Below are positions 1 through 9,032 of a stretch of 64,000 nucleotides of DNA, piece after piece (within the stretch, counting starts at the first letter, position 1; every line of letters begins with the position of its first letter). Where the stretch lies: contig JABLTJ010000012.1 of the NCBI GenBank assembly GCA_013166775.1, positions 18,132 through 82,131 on the forward strand. The letters are read 5' to 3'. This DNA comes from Promethearchaeati archaeon. GTDB taxonomy: Archaea; Asgardarchaeota; Heimdallarchaeia; Heimdallarchaeales; Heimdallarchaeaceae. The translations under genes and the position numbers were made by a program. The notes under the pieces were generated by a model that saw only the letters and a list, made by a program, of their open reading frames with translations, did not search any database and was not told the DNA's origin.

Positions 1-100
1 ACACCCATAAATTACTGACCAAGATTTTAGTTGATCGAGCTCTCTCGTATTTTTCAAGTCCTAATGCTCTTCCAGGACCTCTTCTTTGACCGTGTGCCAT
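1..100 (-). CDS. 5' end of a gene running off the window, probably the partner half of the heterodimeric ABC exporter (MAHGQRRGPGRALGLEKYERARSTKILVSNLWV...)
   Basis: ATG at 100-98 overlaps the TAA of the upstream ABC gene (TAATG coupling); the frame stays open to the window edge. The product is inferred from context only. Confidence 0.6.
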   Translation of the reverse strand, partial: MAHGQRRGPGRALGLEKYERARSTKILVSNLWV

Positions 101-1965
101 TATTTAGAACCTCCTTCTAGAACATCAATATCACTATAAACACCCATGCTTTCTGCCATTGGAAGATGCTGACACATAAACTGATAGTCGACACATCTCT
201 GCAATAATTCTTCATGGGAACCAATATCGACTATCTCTCCTCTTTTCATAAGAATAATAATATCAGCAGCAACAAGTGTTGTAAGCCTTTGAGTAACAAC
301 AATACTAGTGCGATCTTTCATCAGTTCCTCCATAGCATAACGAAGTCTAAGTTCTGTTTTTATGTCAACAGCACTTGTACTATCATCTAAAAGCAGCAGT
401 TTAGGATCTGATAATAGAGCTCGTGCTATTGCTATCCTTTGTCTTTGACCTCCAGAAAGTGTAACTCCTCTCTCACCAATCACTGTTTCATATTTGTTGG
501 GTAGAGTTTCTATAAACTGCGAGATTTGTGCTCTTTCAGCTGCAGATTTAATCTCTTTATCAGATGCTTGTGGTTTAGCAAAAGTTATATTAGCTCTCAA
601 CGTATCAGAGAAAAGGAAAATATCTTGCTCAACCATTGTTACATTCGATCTTACATAATTAGTGTGTATTGAGTCTAGTCTAGTTCCGTCAACTTCTATT
701 GATCCATTTGTTGGATCATAGAGTCTTAAAAGAAGCTTAAGGATTGTTGATTTTCCTGAACCTGGACCTCCAATCAAAGCAACTTTTGAACCTGTAGGTA
801 TTGTAAAAGAAATGTTTTTCAGCACTACTTTCTCAGTCCCAGGGTAAGCAAAATTTACATCTTTGAAATGAATATCTTTTTCCCAATCGCCCTCGATTGG
901 ATTTTCAGGTTGCTGTAGTGGATCGTCGAAAGTCATCATAGACCATAGTCTTTGAGAGTTTTCAAGACCTGCTTGTAGCATGATTAAACGTTGGGGTATC
1001 ATGAAATTTTGTCTATTAAGTGACATAAGTAAACCTAAGATTGATATTAATACTCCTATTGTAAAAGAAGTCCCAGTTGAAGATGTTACCATCCAGAGTC
1101 CATAAGCAAATGCTCCAGCTGTAACAACAATAGTAATCAATGCTGGCCAATAAAAAGCGCTAAGAAATCCTTCTTTCTTCATATCTTCTGCATATTCCAA
1201 ACTTTTCGCATTAAATTTGTTAATCTCTTTTTCATGATTATCAAATGCCCTGACAACTTCCACTCCTCTAAACATTTCTTGTGAAATAGCTGATAGATCA
1301 CCAAGATCAGTAGCAAGTTTTTGTCTAATTGGTCCTACCTTTGCAGCATATCTCCAAGCAATTATTAGATAAATAGCAAAGGATACAGCTAAAACTACAC
1401 CAACTATCCAGTCATACTGTATTAAGAGAACAGTTGTAATAATAATGGTAAACATAGAGCTCAATAACATTCTAAAACCTGGGTGAATAGCCATTCGAAT
1501 CTGATTAATCTCGTTCATACCCATTGACAAAATAACACCAGAATCATTGATATCATAAAATGCCATTGAGTGATCCTGAATTACTTCATAAAATTCTTGT
1601 CGCATGTCTCTTTGTACTCTGAAGGTTGCATCAGCCCAGATATAAATATTCAGACTAAGTGACACCCAACTAATTAGAACGAAAATAATCATTCGTACTA
1701 TAAGCGAGTTAAATTCGGTCGAAAAAATCGTACCTGCATTGATATCAATCAAAAGGATATCTAATACATCTCCAACAAGAGCAATTGTTTTTGTTGTTAG
1801 ATACGTACTTGCTACGAGTAAAACCAATGCAAAACCATACATCAAAGGTTGTCTCTGAAAGGCGGACCAAAACCATCGTGTAGCTGATTTGTATTTCTTT
1901 GTAATCTCTAGTTGAATTTCTGGACTATACTGTGTTTTCTGTTTTTCAATAGTTGATGTTGCCAT
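100..1965 (-). CDS. ABC exporter, fused permease + ATP-binding domain (MdlA/MdlB-like)
   Basis: N-terminal TM helices; Walker A GGPGSGKST, signature LSGGQRQR, Walker B LLLLDD. Confidence 0.93.
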   Translation of the reverse strand: MATSTIEKQKTQYSPEIQLEITKKYKSATRWFWSAFQRQPLMYGFALVLLVASTYLTTKTIALVGDVLDILLIDINAGTIFSTEFNSLIVRMIIFVLISWVSLSLNIYIWADATFRVQRDMRQEFYEVIQDHSMAFYDINDSGVILSMGMNEINQIRMAIHPGFRMLLSSMFTIIITTVLLIQYDWIVGVVLAVSFAIYLIIAWRYAAKVGPIRQKLATDLGDLSAISQEMFRGVEVVRAFDNHEKEINKFNAKSLEYAEDMKKEGFLSAFYWPALITIVVTAGAFAYGLWMVTSSTGTSFTIGVLISILGLLMSLNRQNFMIPQRLIMLQAGLENSQRLWSMMTFDDPLQQPENPIEGDWEKDIHFKDVNFAYPGTEKVVLKNISFTIPTGSKVALIGGPGSGKSTILKLLLRLYDPTNGSIEVDGTRLDSIHTNYVRSNVTMVEQDIFLFSDTLRANITFAKPQASDKEIKSAAERAQISQFIETLPNKYETVIGERGVTLSGGQRQRIAIARALLSDPKLLLLDDSTSAVDIKTELRLRYAMEELMKDRTSIVVTQRLTTLVAADIIILMKRGEIVDIGSHEELLQRCVDYQFMCQHLPMAESMGVYSDIDVLEGGSK

Positions 1966-2925
1966 TTAATTCAGCTCCTTCAAGAGTTTGCTTATTGATT
2001 CTTTTCTTTCAACAAGTTTGATTTTAAGATACTCTTTAGCTAGTTCTCTCTCATCCTCTGATTCAATTCTGTCCAGATGTTCTTTAACAAGACCTGGATG
2101 CCTCAGAAAAACTCGAAAACTTGGCAAAGGCAAACCATGTTCCATAAACATTCTTGAAAATGGTCGTTCATTTTGCTTTCCTTTATGATGAAGCAAATAT
2201 TTTCTGTCTTCATGAGGGATGTCATCTGCTAATCGTCTGAACACATCTCCAAAAGGATTGAAGAATAGAACTTTTCTTTGTTTTTTAGGCATAAAATGTT
2301 TATCATCTACATGGAAAACAAAACCTGTAATATCAATAATATTGATTAGTAGCCTTGCTAATGTGTTTCTTCCCAGCTCTGTAATTTGGTAGATTTTCTT
2401 TAATCTTCCTCCCTCTTTGTCATCTTTGACATACTCAATCAAACCACTTTTCTCTAAGGATTCTATTGCAGGATAAATTCCACTAATATTGCTCCAAATT
2501 GTGGTCATTGATTTTATTTCTTGAACAGATTTTTCCAAATCCTTAGTTATCTCAGAGAGGTAAGCTAAATCCTTTTTGATATTGTCTTCTTTATCCCTAG
2601 TTAGAAGGTTCTTTATCCGAGGATTTAACTTGAATATTGGGCAGTCCTCAATACTCTTTTCTATAGCTCTCCTCTTTGAATTATACTCATCTGTATTAAT
2701 AATATTTTTTGTAATTAGTTGTTGTAAATCATGAAGAGTCTTTATATGATCATCAATGAATTCCAAACTGTTTCTTCGTTTTTCATATAAAATATCTGAA
2801 GCTTTAGAACACATCTCATAGGCATGAGAACCTTCAGGAGAACGAGCAAGGTGTATTAAAATCGCAATTTCCCCTAATTTTCTTGCTAGCTTCTCTTCAT
2901 ATTTGCTTGTTAAATTTTCTTTCAT
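1966..2925 (-). CDS. PadR-family winged-helix transcriptional regulator with a large helical insertion
   Basis: ILIHLARSPEGSHAYEM (helices 1-2), then after ~95 aa GIYPAIESLEKSGLIE...GRLKKIYQITELGR (recognition helix and wing); directly abuts the ABC gene. Confidence 0.75.
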   Translation of the reverse strand: MKENLTSKYEEKLARKLGEIAILIHLARSPEGSHAYEMCSKASDILYEKRRNSLEFIDDHIKTLHDLQQLITKNIINTDEYNSKRRAIEKSIEDCPIFKLNPRIKNLLTRDKEDNIKKDLAYLSEITKDLEKSVQEIKSMTTIWSNISGIYPAIESLEKSGLIEYVKDDKEGGRLKKIYQITELGRNTLARLLINIIDITGFVFHVDDKHFMPKKQRKVLFFNPFGDVFRRLADDIPHEDRKYLLHHKGKQNERPFSRMFMEHGLPLPSFRVFLRHPGLVKEHLDRIESEDERELAKEYLKIKLVERKESISKLLKELN

Positions 2926-3595: not shown

Positions 3596-4279
3596 TTATT
3601 TTTTGGTAAAAAACCAAAAGAATTTTCGTTTCTTTTTCGTTTCTTCTGAAACAGTTTTTCTTAATTCAATAACTCCATCACGTAATGCAAGTTTATAAAC
3701 TAAGTCTCTAAAACCTTCAGGTTCCTCTTCTTGTTCAATTACATACACCAAAGGTATTCGTTTTCTTTCTGTTTCTAAAGCTCTAGTTATCCTACCAGCT
3801 TCATATTTTTCCTTAACTTGACTATCTTTTCCTATCCAGACGAATATTTCATTATAAGCATCTAAAACAAAAGCATCATCTGATTTGAAACCTCGATAAT
3901 CTATGGGAATTTCTGTTGTAATAATCTCACCCTTATCATTTTGCTTGATTTGTAGGAGTTGATAGTCTTTTTCAAATTTCTTCTCAATTTTCTTCAGAAT
4001 TCGTGGAGTATCACCTTCTGTAATCTTGAAAGAAATTATTTTCTTGAATTCTTCAGGTTCTTCATTTTCAGATATAGTTTTGATTTTTAAATCCTTTTTC
4101 TTCTCTTGAAGGATTTTTGCTGACCAAATTCCAGCAAATTTATCATCAACATATGATTTTGAACCCAACCATAACCAAAAAACACTCTCTGTTTCTACAA
4201 TATATACATCTCCTCTATAGAATACATATGGTTCATTTAAAGGAACCAAATCATTTCCTACTATTCGAAAAATCTTCAT
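3596..4279 (-). CDS. Two-domain gelsolin-like actin regulator (Asgard 2DGel type)
   Basis: Two gelsolin repeats: FYRGDVYIVE..FWLWLGSKS..DK..EENEEPEEF and FKSDDAFVLD..IFVWIGKDS..EK..EQEEEPEGF; start probably MKIFRI (4279). Confidence 0.88.
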   Translation of the reverse strand: MKIFRIVGNDLVPLNEPYVFYRGDVYIVETESVFWLWLGSKSYVDDKFAGIWSAKILQEKKKDLKIKTISENEEPEEFKKIISFKITEGDTPRILKKIEKKFEKDYQLLQIKQNDKGEIITTEIPIDYRGFKSDDAFVLDAYNEIFVWIGKDSQVKEKYEAGRITRALETERKRIPLVYVIEQEEEPEGFRDLVYKLALRDGVIELRKTVSEETKKKRKFFWFFTKK

Positions 4280-4396
4280 AAGGTTTTTTTTCTGCAACGC
4301 ATAAATACTTTTGCACAACAAGTTTTTTACTGATCTTAGAGTATTTATTTCATTTTTGATGAAAAAGAATATATACAGTCTAGAGATAAAATAATT

Positions 4397-8336: not shown

Positions 8337-9032
8337 ATGAAAATTAGAATGGATTTCGAAACAGAGTGGGGATATCTCATAAATCCAAAGAATTTTCAAA
8401 TATTACGAATAAAGGATGATATTCCTGAAGGATTTTTTGTTATACTAAAACAGAGAGAGTTTGTTATAGAAATTAATAGAACAGTAGTTAAGAATACTTA
8501 TGGTTTTGTCAAGAAGAATGCACTACAAAAGTTGGATAAGAGAAAATTATCAGAATATTTAGCTGCTGCATGTGCTGATTTCATTCTAAAGAATACTAAT
8601 TTACCTCCGAATGTACTAATTGAAGGAGATCTAAAATATATGAAACCTGCAAATCTTGCATTTTCTGTAACTAGCTATGATGTTTTTCATCTAAAAATAG
8701 ATTCAGTTCTTCTAAAAGGAGAAAATCCTAAAGAACTACTTGAATCAATCATGAAAGAAAGAAATCGCAGCTTGTCCTTCAAGAAAAAAGAGATGAGATG
8801 GAAAGTGGAATATGCTAAAAGTAGTAGAGCAACATGCAAAAAATGTAATAACAAAATAGAAAAAAACACTCTCAGGATAGGAGAACCAAGTTATTATCAA
8901 GAACATCTTTCATTCAAGTGGTTTCATGAAGATTGTGTAGACTTATCCAAATTTGATGAAACAAAATTATCTGGGCTTGTAGAAATAAAACCTCATGATA
9001 GACGGAGAATAGAGAAGAAGCTTAAGAAATAG
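8337..9032 (+). CDS. PARP-type zinc-finger protein with an unknown N-terminal domain
   Basis: C-terminal VEYAKSSRATCKKC...I.K..LRIG...KWFHEDC...GLVEIKPHDRRRI (C167, C170, H197, C200). Confidence 0.88.
   Translation: MKIRMDFETEWGYLINPKNFQILRIKDDIPEGFFVILKQREFVIEINRTVVKNTYGFVKKNALQKLDKRKLSEYLAAACADFILKNTNLPPNVLIEGDLKYMKPANLAFSVTSYDVFHLKIDSVLLKGENPKELLESIMKERNRSLSFKKKEMRWKVEYAKSSRATCKKCNNKIEKNTLRIGEPSYYQEHLSFKWFHEDCVDLSKFDETKLSGLVEIKPHDRRRIEKKLKK

What the first reader, a model, noticed from the sequence alone, without database searches (positions are those of the whole stretch)
3596..4279. Two-domain gelsolin with WH2-like motifs and a basic-aromatic tail: a candidate actin-to-membrane tether
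Seen: two gelsolin repeats. The linker carries ILKKI, and after domain 2 a helix is followed by ELRKT; both resemble the LKKT actin-binding motif of WH2 domains. The protein ends in KKKRKFFWFFTKK. Known: Asgard gelsolins regulate actin, and polybasic/aromatic terminal peptides are typical membrane-targeting sequences (for example the MinD-type amphipathic helix). Inference: this gelsolin could cap, sever or nucleate actin directly at the membrane, which is relevant to Asgard protrusions.
Basis: partly seen in the sequence, partly recalled or inferred. Interest (0 to 1): 0.75.

Follow-up and report, generated by a model that had tools for sequence, protein, structure and literature searches.

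The report
Heimdall gelsolin with membrane-anchor-like tail
This gene of a Heimdall-group Asgard archaeon encodes a two-domain gelsolin (an actin-filament regulator) whose last 13 residues belong to a conserved, previously undescribed class of basic-aromatic end motifs that look like bacterial membrane-targeting peptides. It is therefore a testable candidate for how these relatives of eukaryotes fasten actin to the cell membrane.

Summary
Window 3596-4279 (-) encodes a 227-aa two-domain gelsolin (2DGel). Its best solved relative is the Heimdallarchaeota 2DGel, PDB 7WHF (E 2e-42).

- **Linker motif (LKKI):** it aligns with the crystallographically defined WH2-like motif (LKHV) of that protein. 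This feature is already published.
- **ELRKT after domain 2:** it is conserved (L-R-x-T-V) only within the Heimdallarchaeaceae-type clade. It is predicted to be helical, and binding to actin is unproven.
- **Tail:** this is the new part. Every tailed Heimdallarchaeia 2DGel I collected ends in a polybasic run plus aromatic/hydrophobic residues.
  - Forms seen are KKWWQFWK, KKKPWWKFW, and KKGFFxRLFGR.
  - The motif follows a spacer of variable length.
  - On a core-domain tree the motif flavour switches repeatedly, including among the closest relatives of this protein.
  - Thor/Atabey 2DGels and one nested Heimdall paralogue lack the tail.
  - The published Heim2DGel ends in KLKKKGFFGRLFGR, 8 of 10 residues identical to the E. 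coli MinD membrane-targeting sequence. That segment was left out of the published in-vitro tail construct.
  - In this genome only the two tailed gelsolins carry such an end.

Best reading (about 0.6): a Ca2+-regulated actin regulator held at the membrane by a terminal interfacial anchor. Membrane binding itself is untested.

First readers of this scan noted the same tail on at least six other genomes. None of those notes was followed up.

The parts
3596..4279 (-). Whole CDS of the two-domain gelsolin (2DGel), 227 aa plus stop (3596-3598)
   Evidence: ORF and translation; Pfam Gelsolin x2; PDB 7WHF E 2.3e-42; Foldseek top hits 7whf, 7c2h, 7c2g, 7whg
4019..4279 (-). Gelsolin domain 1 (residues 1-87). 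It carries the type II Ca2+ signature residues D24 and D45/D46. Q58 sits at the position of the type I Asp.
   Evidence: AF2 secondary structure; column counts in alignment A1; the mapping to human gelsolin D66/E97/D109 is alignment arithmetic from my own knowledge of that numbering (inference)
3968..4018 (-). Inter-domain linker (residues 88-104), predicted disordered. It contains the WH2-like motif L95-K96-K97-I98 (window 3986-3997).
   Evidence: pLDDT below 50 for residues 91-102; L95 invariant in 34 sequences; aligns with FLKHV of 7WHF, described as the WH2-like actin-binding motif in PMC9433394 and PMC7444086
3683..3967 (-). Gelsolin domain 2 (residues 105-199), with conserved acidic residues D140, E157, E160 and E169
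   Evidence: Pfam best stretch 123-191; AF2; column counts
3650..3667 (-). E205-L-R-K-T-V210: a clade-conserved L-R-x-T-V motif in the helical extension after domain 2, and a candidate duplicate of the linker motif
   Evidence: L206 in 29/34, R207 in 31/34, T209 in 29/34, V210 in 28/34 sequences. A global profile alignment of D1+linker on D2+extension puts LKKI on LRKT, but the local alignment stops before it. It is absent in P0262/7WHF.
3638..3649 (-). Short acidic spacer S-E-E-T (residues 211-214). In relatives this spacer varies from a few residues to roughly 50-60.
   Evidence: Alignment A1 and C-termini lists
3599..3637 (-). Terminal polybasic-aromatic motif KKKRKFFWFFTKK (residues 215-227): proposed interfacial membrane anchor
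   Evidence: Conserved class of C-termini. Net charge +7 and best 5-residue Wimley-White interfacial score -6.4 kcal/mol, rank 1 of 419 basic C-termini in the genome. pLDDT about 45, with no confident structure for the tail.
4301..4307 (-). TATTTAT, 22-28 nt upstream of the ATG: candidate archaeal TATA box for a leaderless or short-leader transcript
   Evidence: Read directly from the sequence; inference only, since no archaeal promoter tool was available and the bacterial consensus scan is irrelevant

Best explanation
The gene encodes a Heimdallarchaeial two-domain gelsolin, a Ca2+-regulated protein that binds actin monomers and filament barbed ends. Domain 1 and the following WH2-like LKKI stretch should bind actin as in the solved Heim2DGel/actin complex, with domain 2 supplying a second contact. 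After domain 2 a helical extension and a short spacer lead to a terminal polybasic-aromatic peptide (KKKRKFFWFFTKK). I propose that this peptide works as a membrane-targeting sequence. The lysines and arginines would be attracted to the anionic archaeal membrane surface, and the Phe/Trp cluster would insert into the interfacial zone. Severing, capping or sequestering activity, or capped filament ends, would then be held at the inner face of the cell membrane. The tail-less paralogue encoded in the same genome would act in the cytosol. Shown: gelsolin identity, homology of the linker motif, conservation and physico-chemistry of the tail, and its distribution among paralogues and lineages. Inferred: Ca2+ regulation, actin binding by this particular protein, and all membrane binding.
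For: Identity: Pfam Gelsolin x2; 7WHF E 2.3e-42 over residues 2-203; Foldseek top hits are the four Asgard 2DGel/actin structures. The genome encodes two actins and an ARP. Tail, 1: 73 homologues of 43-85% identity nearly all end in [KR]2-[WF][WFY]x[FV][WL][KR]. Right-anchored identity over 73 sequences is K.97 K.95 W.96 W.92 Q.78 F.99 W1.0, against 0.25-0.67 in the spacer. Tail, 2: more distant clusters end in KKKPWWKFW, KKKKKPFWKFWG, KKSFWDKLKFW, KKGFFARLFxx and KKKKRGFFSRLFRRG, after spacers of very different length and sequence. Tail, 3: the published Heim2DGel (P0262) ends KLKKKGFFGRLFGR, 8 of 10 identical to the E. coli MinD membrane-targeting tag KGFLKRLFGG. Tail, 4: on a core-domain tree, 61 of 69 Heimdallarchaeia rows are tailed and the Thor/Atabey outgroup is tail-less. 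The tail-less Heimdallarchaeaceae paralogue is one nested clade (99*). The W-rich and MinD-like flavours interchange at least 4-6 times, including within the 5-row clade (97*) that holds this protein. Turnover of sequence with retained charge and hydrophobicity is what lipid-binding peptides show. Tail, 5: in this genome the motif occurs only on the two tailed gelsolins. Their C-termini rank 1 and 2 of 419 basic C-termini for interfacial hydrophobicity. Tail, 6: published experiments fit. Removing the Heim2DGel tail did not change Ca2+-dependent actin disassembly, residues 227-270 did not bind F-actin, and the tail kept GFP out of the nucleus; the authors call the tail's role unclear (PMC9433394).
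Against: There are no membrane-binding data for any of these proteins. FFWFF is not an amphipathic helix, since five consecutive aromatics cover all faces, and its hydrophobic moment is only moderate (0.64). AF2 gives the tail pLDDT of about 45. Within Heimdallarchaeaceae the KKWWQFW sequence is conserved almost residue for residue. That is tighter than lipid binding alone requires and could indicate a protein partner. The published GFP-tail fusion was reported as excluded from the nucleus, not as enriched on membranes, and its exact end point is not stated. The motif is not used by any other protein of this genome.
Confidence: 0.6

Rival explanations
1. The terminal motif is a docking peptide for a protein, not for lipid. 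Candidates are a second actin subunit or the side of a filament (giving side-binding, bundling or nucleation), or another specific partner such as a Ca2+ sensor that recognises basic amphipathic helices.
For: KKWWQFW is nearly invariant residue by residue in 73 Heimdallarchaeaceae sequences, and the motif is restricted to gelsolins in this genome. The first 10-20 residues after D2 contact actin in the Loki and Heim crystal structures (PMC9433394). The authors of PMC7444086 proposed an F-actin side-binding element in the C-terminal extension of 1DGelX. The published F-actin pelleting test used residues 227-270 and so never tested the terminal motif.
Against: The motif sequence is replaced by quite different basic-hydrophobic sequences (FLSFLKKK, GFFSRLFRRG, SFWDKLKFW) in close and distant relatives while the actins stay conserved. 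The spacer varies from a few residues to roughly 50-60, which is unlike a motif that must reach a fixed site on bound actin. Removing the tail did not alter actin disassembly by Heim2DGel in cells.
Confidence: 0.2
2. The C-terminal helix and tail act as an intramolecular latch that folds back on the gelsolin domains in low Ca2+ and keeps the protein inactive, like the C-terminal latch helix of human gelsolin G6 on G2.
For: Asgard 2DGels are inactive without Ca2+ (PMC9433394). Vertebrate gelsolin uses a C-terminal helix as a latch (own knowledge; review cited as ref. 11 in PMC7444086). AF2 predicts a long C-terminal helix.
Against: AF2 gives no confident structure for the tail (pLDDT falls to about 45). 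Tail-less Thor 2DGels and the tail-less paralogue are also Ca2+-type 2DGels. Truncated Heim2DGel stayed inactive before ionomycin and active after it, as reported. A latch would not tolerate spacers ranging from a few residues to roughly 50-60.
Confidence: 0.07
3. Separate question: ELRKTV after domain 2 is a second WH2-like actin-binding motif, a duplicate of the linker motif. One molecule could then hold two actins and nucleate or cap at the membrane.
For: L206, R207, T209 and V210 are conserved in 28-31 of 34 sequences. Other clusters have LRRV or LRKV at this place, and LRRV is the central motif of Thor2DGel. A global profile alignment of D1+linker against D2+extension puts LKKI exactly on LRKT. 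Loki2DGel binds two actins, and the first 20 residues after D2 touch actin.
Against: The local profile alignment ends 13 residues earlier, so the register is not statistically supported. The third position is K, T, S or R. The motif is missing in P0071, P0072 and the solved Heim2DGel. AF2 predicts it helical, whereas LKKT of WH2 binds extended. There is no Pfam WH2 match.
Confidence: 0.3

Closest known systems
Heim2DGel of Heimdallarchaeota LC_3 (OLS25976.1, PDB 7WHF; Akil et al. 2022, PMC9433394)
   Same: Two gelsolin domains with a WH2-like L-K-x-[VI] motif in the linker, and conserved type II Ca2+ residues. 37-38% identity (Foldseek). A C-terminal extension ends in a polybasic-hydrophobic motif.
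   Different: The LC_3 extension is 68 aa with a MinD-like end (GFFGRLFGR). This protein has about 30 residues beyond D2, a conserved LRKTV and an FFWFF end. It lacks the insertions of Heim2DGel D1/D2 (gaps) and has Gln at the D1 type I position. The published work did not recognise or test the terminal motif.
Thorarchaeota 2DGel / 2DGel3 (PDB 7C2G, 7C2H; Akil et al. 2020, PMC7444086)
   Same: [quoted passage not shown]
   Different: The Thor proteins stop right after domain 2 (197-200 aa). They have no extension and no basic-aromatic tail.
Membrane-targeting sequence of MinD (E. coli KGFLKRLFGG), and by the same principle FtsA
   Same: A short motif at the extreme C-terminus, with basic residues next to Phe/Leu/Trp, attached by a flexible spacer. 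Relatives of this protein carry near-identical sequences.
   Different: This protein's own version (FFWFF between two basic runs) is not a regular amphipathic helix. No homology is implied, only convergence. Function is untested.
Vertebrate gelsolin/CapG/villin phosphoinositide regulation, and polybasic-aromatic effector peptides such as MARCKS-ED (own knowledge)
   Same: An actin capping/severing protein whose activity is coupled to acidic membrane lipids through basic (and, in MARCKS, Phe-rich) stretches.
   Different: In eukaryotic gelsolin the lipid site lies in the G1-G2 linker region and releases actin. Here the candidate lipid binder is a separate terminal peptide that would tether the protein and not inhibit it.

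Membership tests
Gelsolin-homology superfamily (Pfam PF00626) | Gelsolin repeat above the curated threshold, with gelsolin fold | tested here: met
   66.2 bits against a cut-off of 21, two stretches; Foldseek probability 1.00 to gelsolin structures
Asgard two-domain gelsolin (2DGel) | Exactly two gelsolin domains in a protein of about 200-340 aa, closest to the solved Asgard 2DGels | tested here: met
   7WHF E 2.3e-42, 7C2G E 3e-31, 7WHG E 1.8e-17; AF2 shows two domains
Asgard two-domain gelsolin (2DGel) | WH2-like L-[KR]-[KRH]-[TVI] motif in the D1-D2 linker | tested here: met
   LKKI at residues 95-98 aligns with LKHV of 7WHF; L95 invariant
Asgard two-domain gelsolin (2DGel) | Signature Ca2+-binding residues (type I and II) in both domains | tested here: inconclusive
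   D24, D45/46, D140, E157, E160 and E169 are conserved. The D1 type I position is Q58 here (E in 21 of 34 relatives). The mapping rests on alignment arithmetic, not on a structure.
Asgard two-domain gelsolin (2DGel) | Ca2+-dependent severing, capping or sequestering of actin | not testable with these tools
   Shown only for the Thor, Loki, MKD1 and LC_3 proteins (PMC7444086, PMC9433394)
WH2 domain (Pfam PF02205) | Amphipathic helix followed by an extended LKKT/V, detectable as a WH2 domain | tested here: not met
   No WH2 hit at E up to 1. The linker motif is 'WH2-like' only in the sense of the gelsolin G1-G2 linker. ELRKT is predicted helical.
MinD/FtsA-type C-terminal membrane-targeting sequence (functional class, not a homology family) | Short basic plus hydrophobic/aromatic peptide at the extreme C-terminus after a flexible spacer, conserved in character rather than sequence | tested here: met
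   Net charge +7 and interfacial score -6.4 kcal/mol, rank 1 of 419.
MinD/FtsA-type C-terminal membrane-targeting sequence (functional class, not a homology family) | Regular amphipathic helix | tested here: inconclusive
   Hydrophobic moment is 0.64 for this protein, against 0.8-1.09 for the MinD-like relatives. FFWFF has no polar face. KKWWQFW places W, W, F and W on one face (own helical-wheel arithmetic).
MinD/FtsA-type C-terminal membrane-targeting sequence (functional class, not a homology family) | Binds membranes and is needed for membrane localisation | not testable with these tools
   No experiment exists. The published tail construct 227-270 lacked the motif.

The most novel reading that the evidence does not exclude
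The common ancestor of Heimdallarchaeia 2DGels, the gelsolins of the archaeal group closest to eukaryotes, was a peripheral membrane protein. A terminal MTS-like peptide ties a Ca2+-regulated capping/severing module directly to the lipid bilayer. In the Heimdallarchaeaceae clade a duplicated WH2-like motif (LRKTV) would let the membrane-bound molecule hold a second actin, making it a membrane-localised nucleator or barbed-end anchor that shapes protrusions. Later duplication and tail loss would have produced a cytosolic paralogue. This would be the first direct actin-membrane linker defined in Asgard archaea, and a prokaryotic forerunner of lipid-coupled gelsolin regulation.
Probability: 0.2. 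Interest if true: 0.85.

Novelty: new variant of a known kind. Interest (0 to 1): 0.62.

Why it matters
Asgard archaea build actin-filled protrusions and crawl. Their known actin regulators are essentially profilins and gelsolins, and no protein has been shown to connect the filaments to the membrane. A conserved membrane-anchor-like end on the gelsolins of Heimdallarchaeia would supply such a link. The candidate element is only 8-13 residues long, so it is easy to test. It also gives a reason to re-examine the published Heim2DGel, whose 'tail of unclear role' ends in a near copy of the MinD membrane-targeting sequence that was left out of the in-vitro construct. If confirmed, it would show that coupling of gelsolin-type actin regulation to membranes predates eukaryotes. 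It would also show that tailed and tail-less paralogues divide membrane and cytosolic duties.

Tried and rejected
- **Co-fold:** I submitted residues 186-227 (from alignment A1) with the genome's own actin (L007) to test whether ELRKT or the tail binds actin. 
- **Promoter scan:** the bacterial promoter/terminator scan gave nothing meaningful for an archaeon.
- **Tail peptide against PDB sequences:** no hits.
- **Gene neighbourhood:** the neighbours are an ABC exporter, PadR, DUF1801, a DUF308 membrane protein, NhaA and MscS. The gelsolin-PadR-ABC order recurs in an 81%-identical relative, but that closeness makes it uninformative, and there is no cytoskeletal context.
- **A general targeting tag of this organism:** rejected, because only the two gelsolins carry the motif.
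- **A sorting signal of the PGF-CTERM/archaeosortase kind:** rejected, because there is no signal peptide and no transmembrane helix.
- **The upstream TTG start at 4321:** rejected by the homologue N-termini.
- **Literature:** searches for a described membrane-binding tail on Asgard gelsolins found none.

Full report
**1. What is there**

The minus-strand ORF from ATG 4279 to the stop at 3596-3598 encodes 227 residues. An in-frame TTG at 4321 would add 14 residues, but all homologues begin at the MK[IV][FY] that corresponds to 4279. A TATTTAT lies 22-28 nt upstream of that ATG, as expected for an archaeal TATA box of a leaderless or short-leader mRNA. This last point is inference only.

Pfam finds the gelsolin repeat twice (E 2.3e-18). 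Among solved structures the best sequence match is the Heimdallarchaeota 2DGel, PDB 7WHF (E 2.3e-42, residues 2-203). Thor 2DGel3, Loki 2DGel and vertebrate gelsolins follow.

An AF2 model built on 34 homologues (mean pLDDT 77) shows:
- two gelsolin domains;
- a disordered linker (residues 91-102, pLDDT below 50);
- one long C-terminal helix (190-225) whose confidence falls from 87 to about 45.

Foldseek returns the four Asgard 2DGel/actin structures as top hits.

**2. Organism and paralogues**

The window lies on contig C7 of a 3.85-Mb, 115-contig assembly, 88.7% complete. Homologues come almost only from Heimdallarchaeota/Heimdallarchaeaceae MAGs.

The genome encodes two actins and one ARP. 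It has three 2DGel paralogues:
- this protein;
- a 225-aa one on C22 ending KKWWQFWK;
- a 204-aa one on C112 that stops right after domain 2.

Other Heimdallarchaeaceae genomes typically carry one tailed (225-230 aa) and one tail-less (204-209 aa) copy.

The neighbours here are an ABC exporter, PadR, DUF1801, a DUF308 membrane protein, NhaA and MscS. None is cytoskeletal. The same gelsolin-PadR-ABC order in an 81%-identical relative reflects close kinship only.

**3. The linker motif**

LKKI (residues 95-98) aligns with LKHV of 7WHF. That stretch runs up the face of actin in the crystal structures. The literature describes it as the central WH2-like motif of Asgard 2DGels: LRRV in Thor, LKHV in Heim, LVDV/LKDV in Loki (PMC7444086, PMC9433394, bioRxiv 2025.11.30.690169). 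L95 is invariant in my alignment. This part of the finding is correct but already known.

**4. ELRKT**

In alignment A1, L206, R207, T209 and V210 are kept in 28-31 of 34 sequences. Position 208 varies (K, T, S, R). Some distant clusters have LRRV or LRKV there.

The segments after each domain look like duplicates. Both run EEPE-x-F, then about 15 residues, then L-[KR]-K-[IT]. A global profile alignment puts LKKI exactly on LRKT. However, the local alignment ends at residues 82 and 194, so the register is only suggestive.

The motif is missing in P0071, P0072 and the solved Heim2DGel. It is predicted helical, and there is no Pfam WH2 match.

There is published precedent for a contact here: the first 10-20 residues after D2 contact actin in the Loki and Heim complexes. 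I give a second actin-binding role about 0.3.

**5. The tail**

This is the informative part. Nearly all 73 homologues end in a basic pair plus an aromatic cluster, most often KKWWQFWK(R). The closest relatives of this protein end in FLSFLKKK, RFWEKKKK, FLDSLKRKILSFLKK or KKWWEFWK. Anchored on the last Trp, identity over 73 sequences is K.97 K.95 W.96 W.92 Q.78 F.99 W1.0. The spacer before it shows 0.25-0.67.

A search of 1.8 billion cluster representatives and a second word search extended this to clusters below 50% identity:
- KKWWQFWRWFSN, KKKKKPFWKFWG, KKKKKSFWDKLKFWQKRK;
- a Kariarchaeaceae-type group of 245-280 aa in which a 40-70-residue acidic spacer ends in KKKPWWKFW, KKGFFARLFxx, KKGLLGKLMFWK or KKGFWSRLFGKK.

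Genome loci add KKKKRGFFSRLFRRG.

P0262 is the published Heim2DGel. Its residue 222 is Asp, as the paper states, which confirms the numbering. It ends KLKKKGFFGRLFGR (residues 271-284). That is 8 of 10 identical to KGFLKRLFGG, the E. coli MinD membrane-targeting tag used to tether proteins to membranes (PMC5471200).

**6. Evolutionary pattern**

I built a tree from the core domains only (columns up to residue 200, 75 rows below 85% identity, IQ-TREE LG+G4 quick search, SH-aLRT support, rooted on Thor/Atabey rows). I left out four likely truncated fragments and all forms over 300 aa.

- 61 of 69 Heimdallarchaeia rows are tailed.
- All six outgroup rows are tail-less.
- The tail-less Heimdallarchaeaceae paralogue is one nested clade (99*).
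- W-rich and MinD-like ends interchange 8-9 times by parsimony, at least 4-6 of them forced by starred branches. One switch lies inside the 5-row clade (97*) that contains this protein.

If the root is right, the tail is ancestral to these Heimdallarchaeia 2DGels and was lost in the short paralogue. Replacing one basic-hydrophobic sequence by another, on spacers ranging from a few residues to roughly 50-60, is the behaviour of a lipid-binding peptide. A peptide fitted to a protein pocket would behave differently.

**7. Specificity within the genome**

A regular-expression scan of all 10,516 stop-terminated ORFs of at least 60 aa finds the motif only on the two tailed gelsolins, apart from obvious non-matches.

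This protein scores -6.37 kcal/mol with net charge +7, and the C22 paralogue -6.10 with +4. They rank 1 and 2 among 419 ORFs of at least 100 aa with basic C-termini, and 2 and 4 among all 4,223.

**8. Fit with published experiments (PMC9433394)**

- Removing the Heim2DGel tail did not change Ca2+-triggered loss of actin filaments in U2OS cells.
- The tail fragment did not pellet with F-actin. That fragment was 227-270, so it lacked the terminal motif.
- Full-length protein and a GFP-tail fusion were kept out of the nucleus, whereas truncated protein and GFP entered it.
- The authors conclude that the role of the tails is unclear and may concern cellular location.

This is compatible with attachment to cytoplasmic membranes but does not show it. 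No paper in the searchable library describes a membrane-targeting end on Asgard gelsolins.

**9. Mechanism proposed**

Domain 1 plus LKKI binds actin at the barbed-end cleft and face, as in 7WHF. Ca2+ activates, since the type II residues D24, D45/46, D140 and E157 are conserved. The D1 type I position is Gln58 here but Glu/Asp in most relatives (mapping by alignment arithmetic). The helical extension and spacer act as a short arm. The terminal KKKRK-FFWFF-TKK sits in the interfacial region of an anionic membrane.

The consequence would be capping, severing or sequestering at the cell cortex, or anchoring of capped ends. A tail-less paralogue would cover cytosolic duty. Confidence is about 0.6.

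Main rival (0.2): the motif docks on actin or another protein. The near-invariance of KKWWQFW within one family and its restriction to gelsolins argue for this. A latch role (0.07) fits poorly with the variable spacers and the published truncation data.

**10. Novelty and prior notes**

The protein family, its Ca2+ control and its central WH2-like motif are known. The conserved terminal motif class, its MinD-like members (including the crystallised Heim2DGel), its likely ancestral status and its loss in a paralogue are, as far as I could search, undescribed.

First readers of this scan noted the same kind of tail on the C22 paralogue and on at least six other genomes, including a MinD-like KKGFWSKIFRR end. 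Those notes were unchecked, and the present analysis reached the same pattern from the sequence data. Other follow-ups in the scan describe Lokiarchaeial gelsolin domains fused to four-helix membrane modules. If real, that would be a second, independent way of putting a gelsolin at the membrane; I did not test it.

Noticed in passing
G000 C22:20118-20858 (-) and C112:1760-2422 (-); loci L003/L006 and L001/L004: There are two further 2DGel paralogues in the same genome. One is 225 aa with the canonical KKWWQFWK end. The other is 204 aa and stops right after domain 2 (...AKEDKKK). Most Heimdallarchaeaceae genomes sampled carry such a tailed plus tail-less pair.
   Followed up: partly
P0262 (Heim LC_3 HeimC3_12500, PDB 7WHF), residues 271-284: The published Heim2DGel ends KLKKKGFFGRLFGR, 8 of 10 identical to the E. 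coli MinD membrane-targeting tag. The in-vitro tail construct of the paper was 227-270 and so lacked this segment.
   Followed up: yes
window 4105-4107 (codon of Gln58): Gln58 stands at the position that, by alignment arithmetic, corresponds to the type I Ca2+-ligand Asp of gelsolin domain 1 (human D109; Asp in Heim2DGel). It is Glu in 21 and Gln in 9 of 34 relatives, and the Gln forms are this protein's own subclade. Ca2+ dependence of actin binding by D1 may be altered.
   Followed up: partly
P0263, P0264, P0267, P0079 (Hodarchaeota, about 390-400 aa); P0091, P0236, P0243, L074, L080 (Kariarchaeaceae-type, 443-536 aa): Longer 2DGels carry a different conserved C-terminal domain (pattern ...SGF.L..G.R.G....GH.Y..) instead of the basic-aromatic end. 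It has no Pfam match. It probably corresponds to the 409-aa B3_Heim architecture mentioned in PMC9433394.
   Followed up: partly
G000 contigs C48 and C49 (+), 156-aa ORFs: A duplicated 156-aa ORF ends in EKIPFWKKIF[TA]RKK. It is the only other basic-aromatic C-terminus of this kind in the genome. Its identity was not determined.
   Followed up: no
L010 and L046 (JBHLQZ01, record titled Candidatus Thorarchaeota archaeon QM1B.68): This MAG carries the Heimdallarchaeaceae-type tailed (69% identical to this protein) and tail-less 2DGel pair, unlike all other Thorarchaeota records. The taxonomic label of the record is probably wrong.
   Followed up: no
window 8337-9032 (+): A 231-aa protein has a C-terminal PARP/DNA-ligase-III-type zinc finger (PF00645, E 6e-15) and an unassigned N-terminal part. 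This finger is unusual outside eukaryotes.
   Followed up: no
window 1966-2925 (-) and 100-1965 (-): A PadR-family regulator of 319 aa is much longer than usual, with its PadR match only at residues 125-190. It sits directly upstream of an ABC exporter gene. The same pair follows the gelsolin gene in an 81%-identical relative (L084).
   Followed up: no
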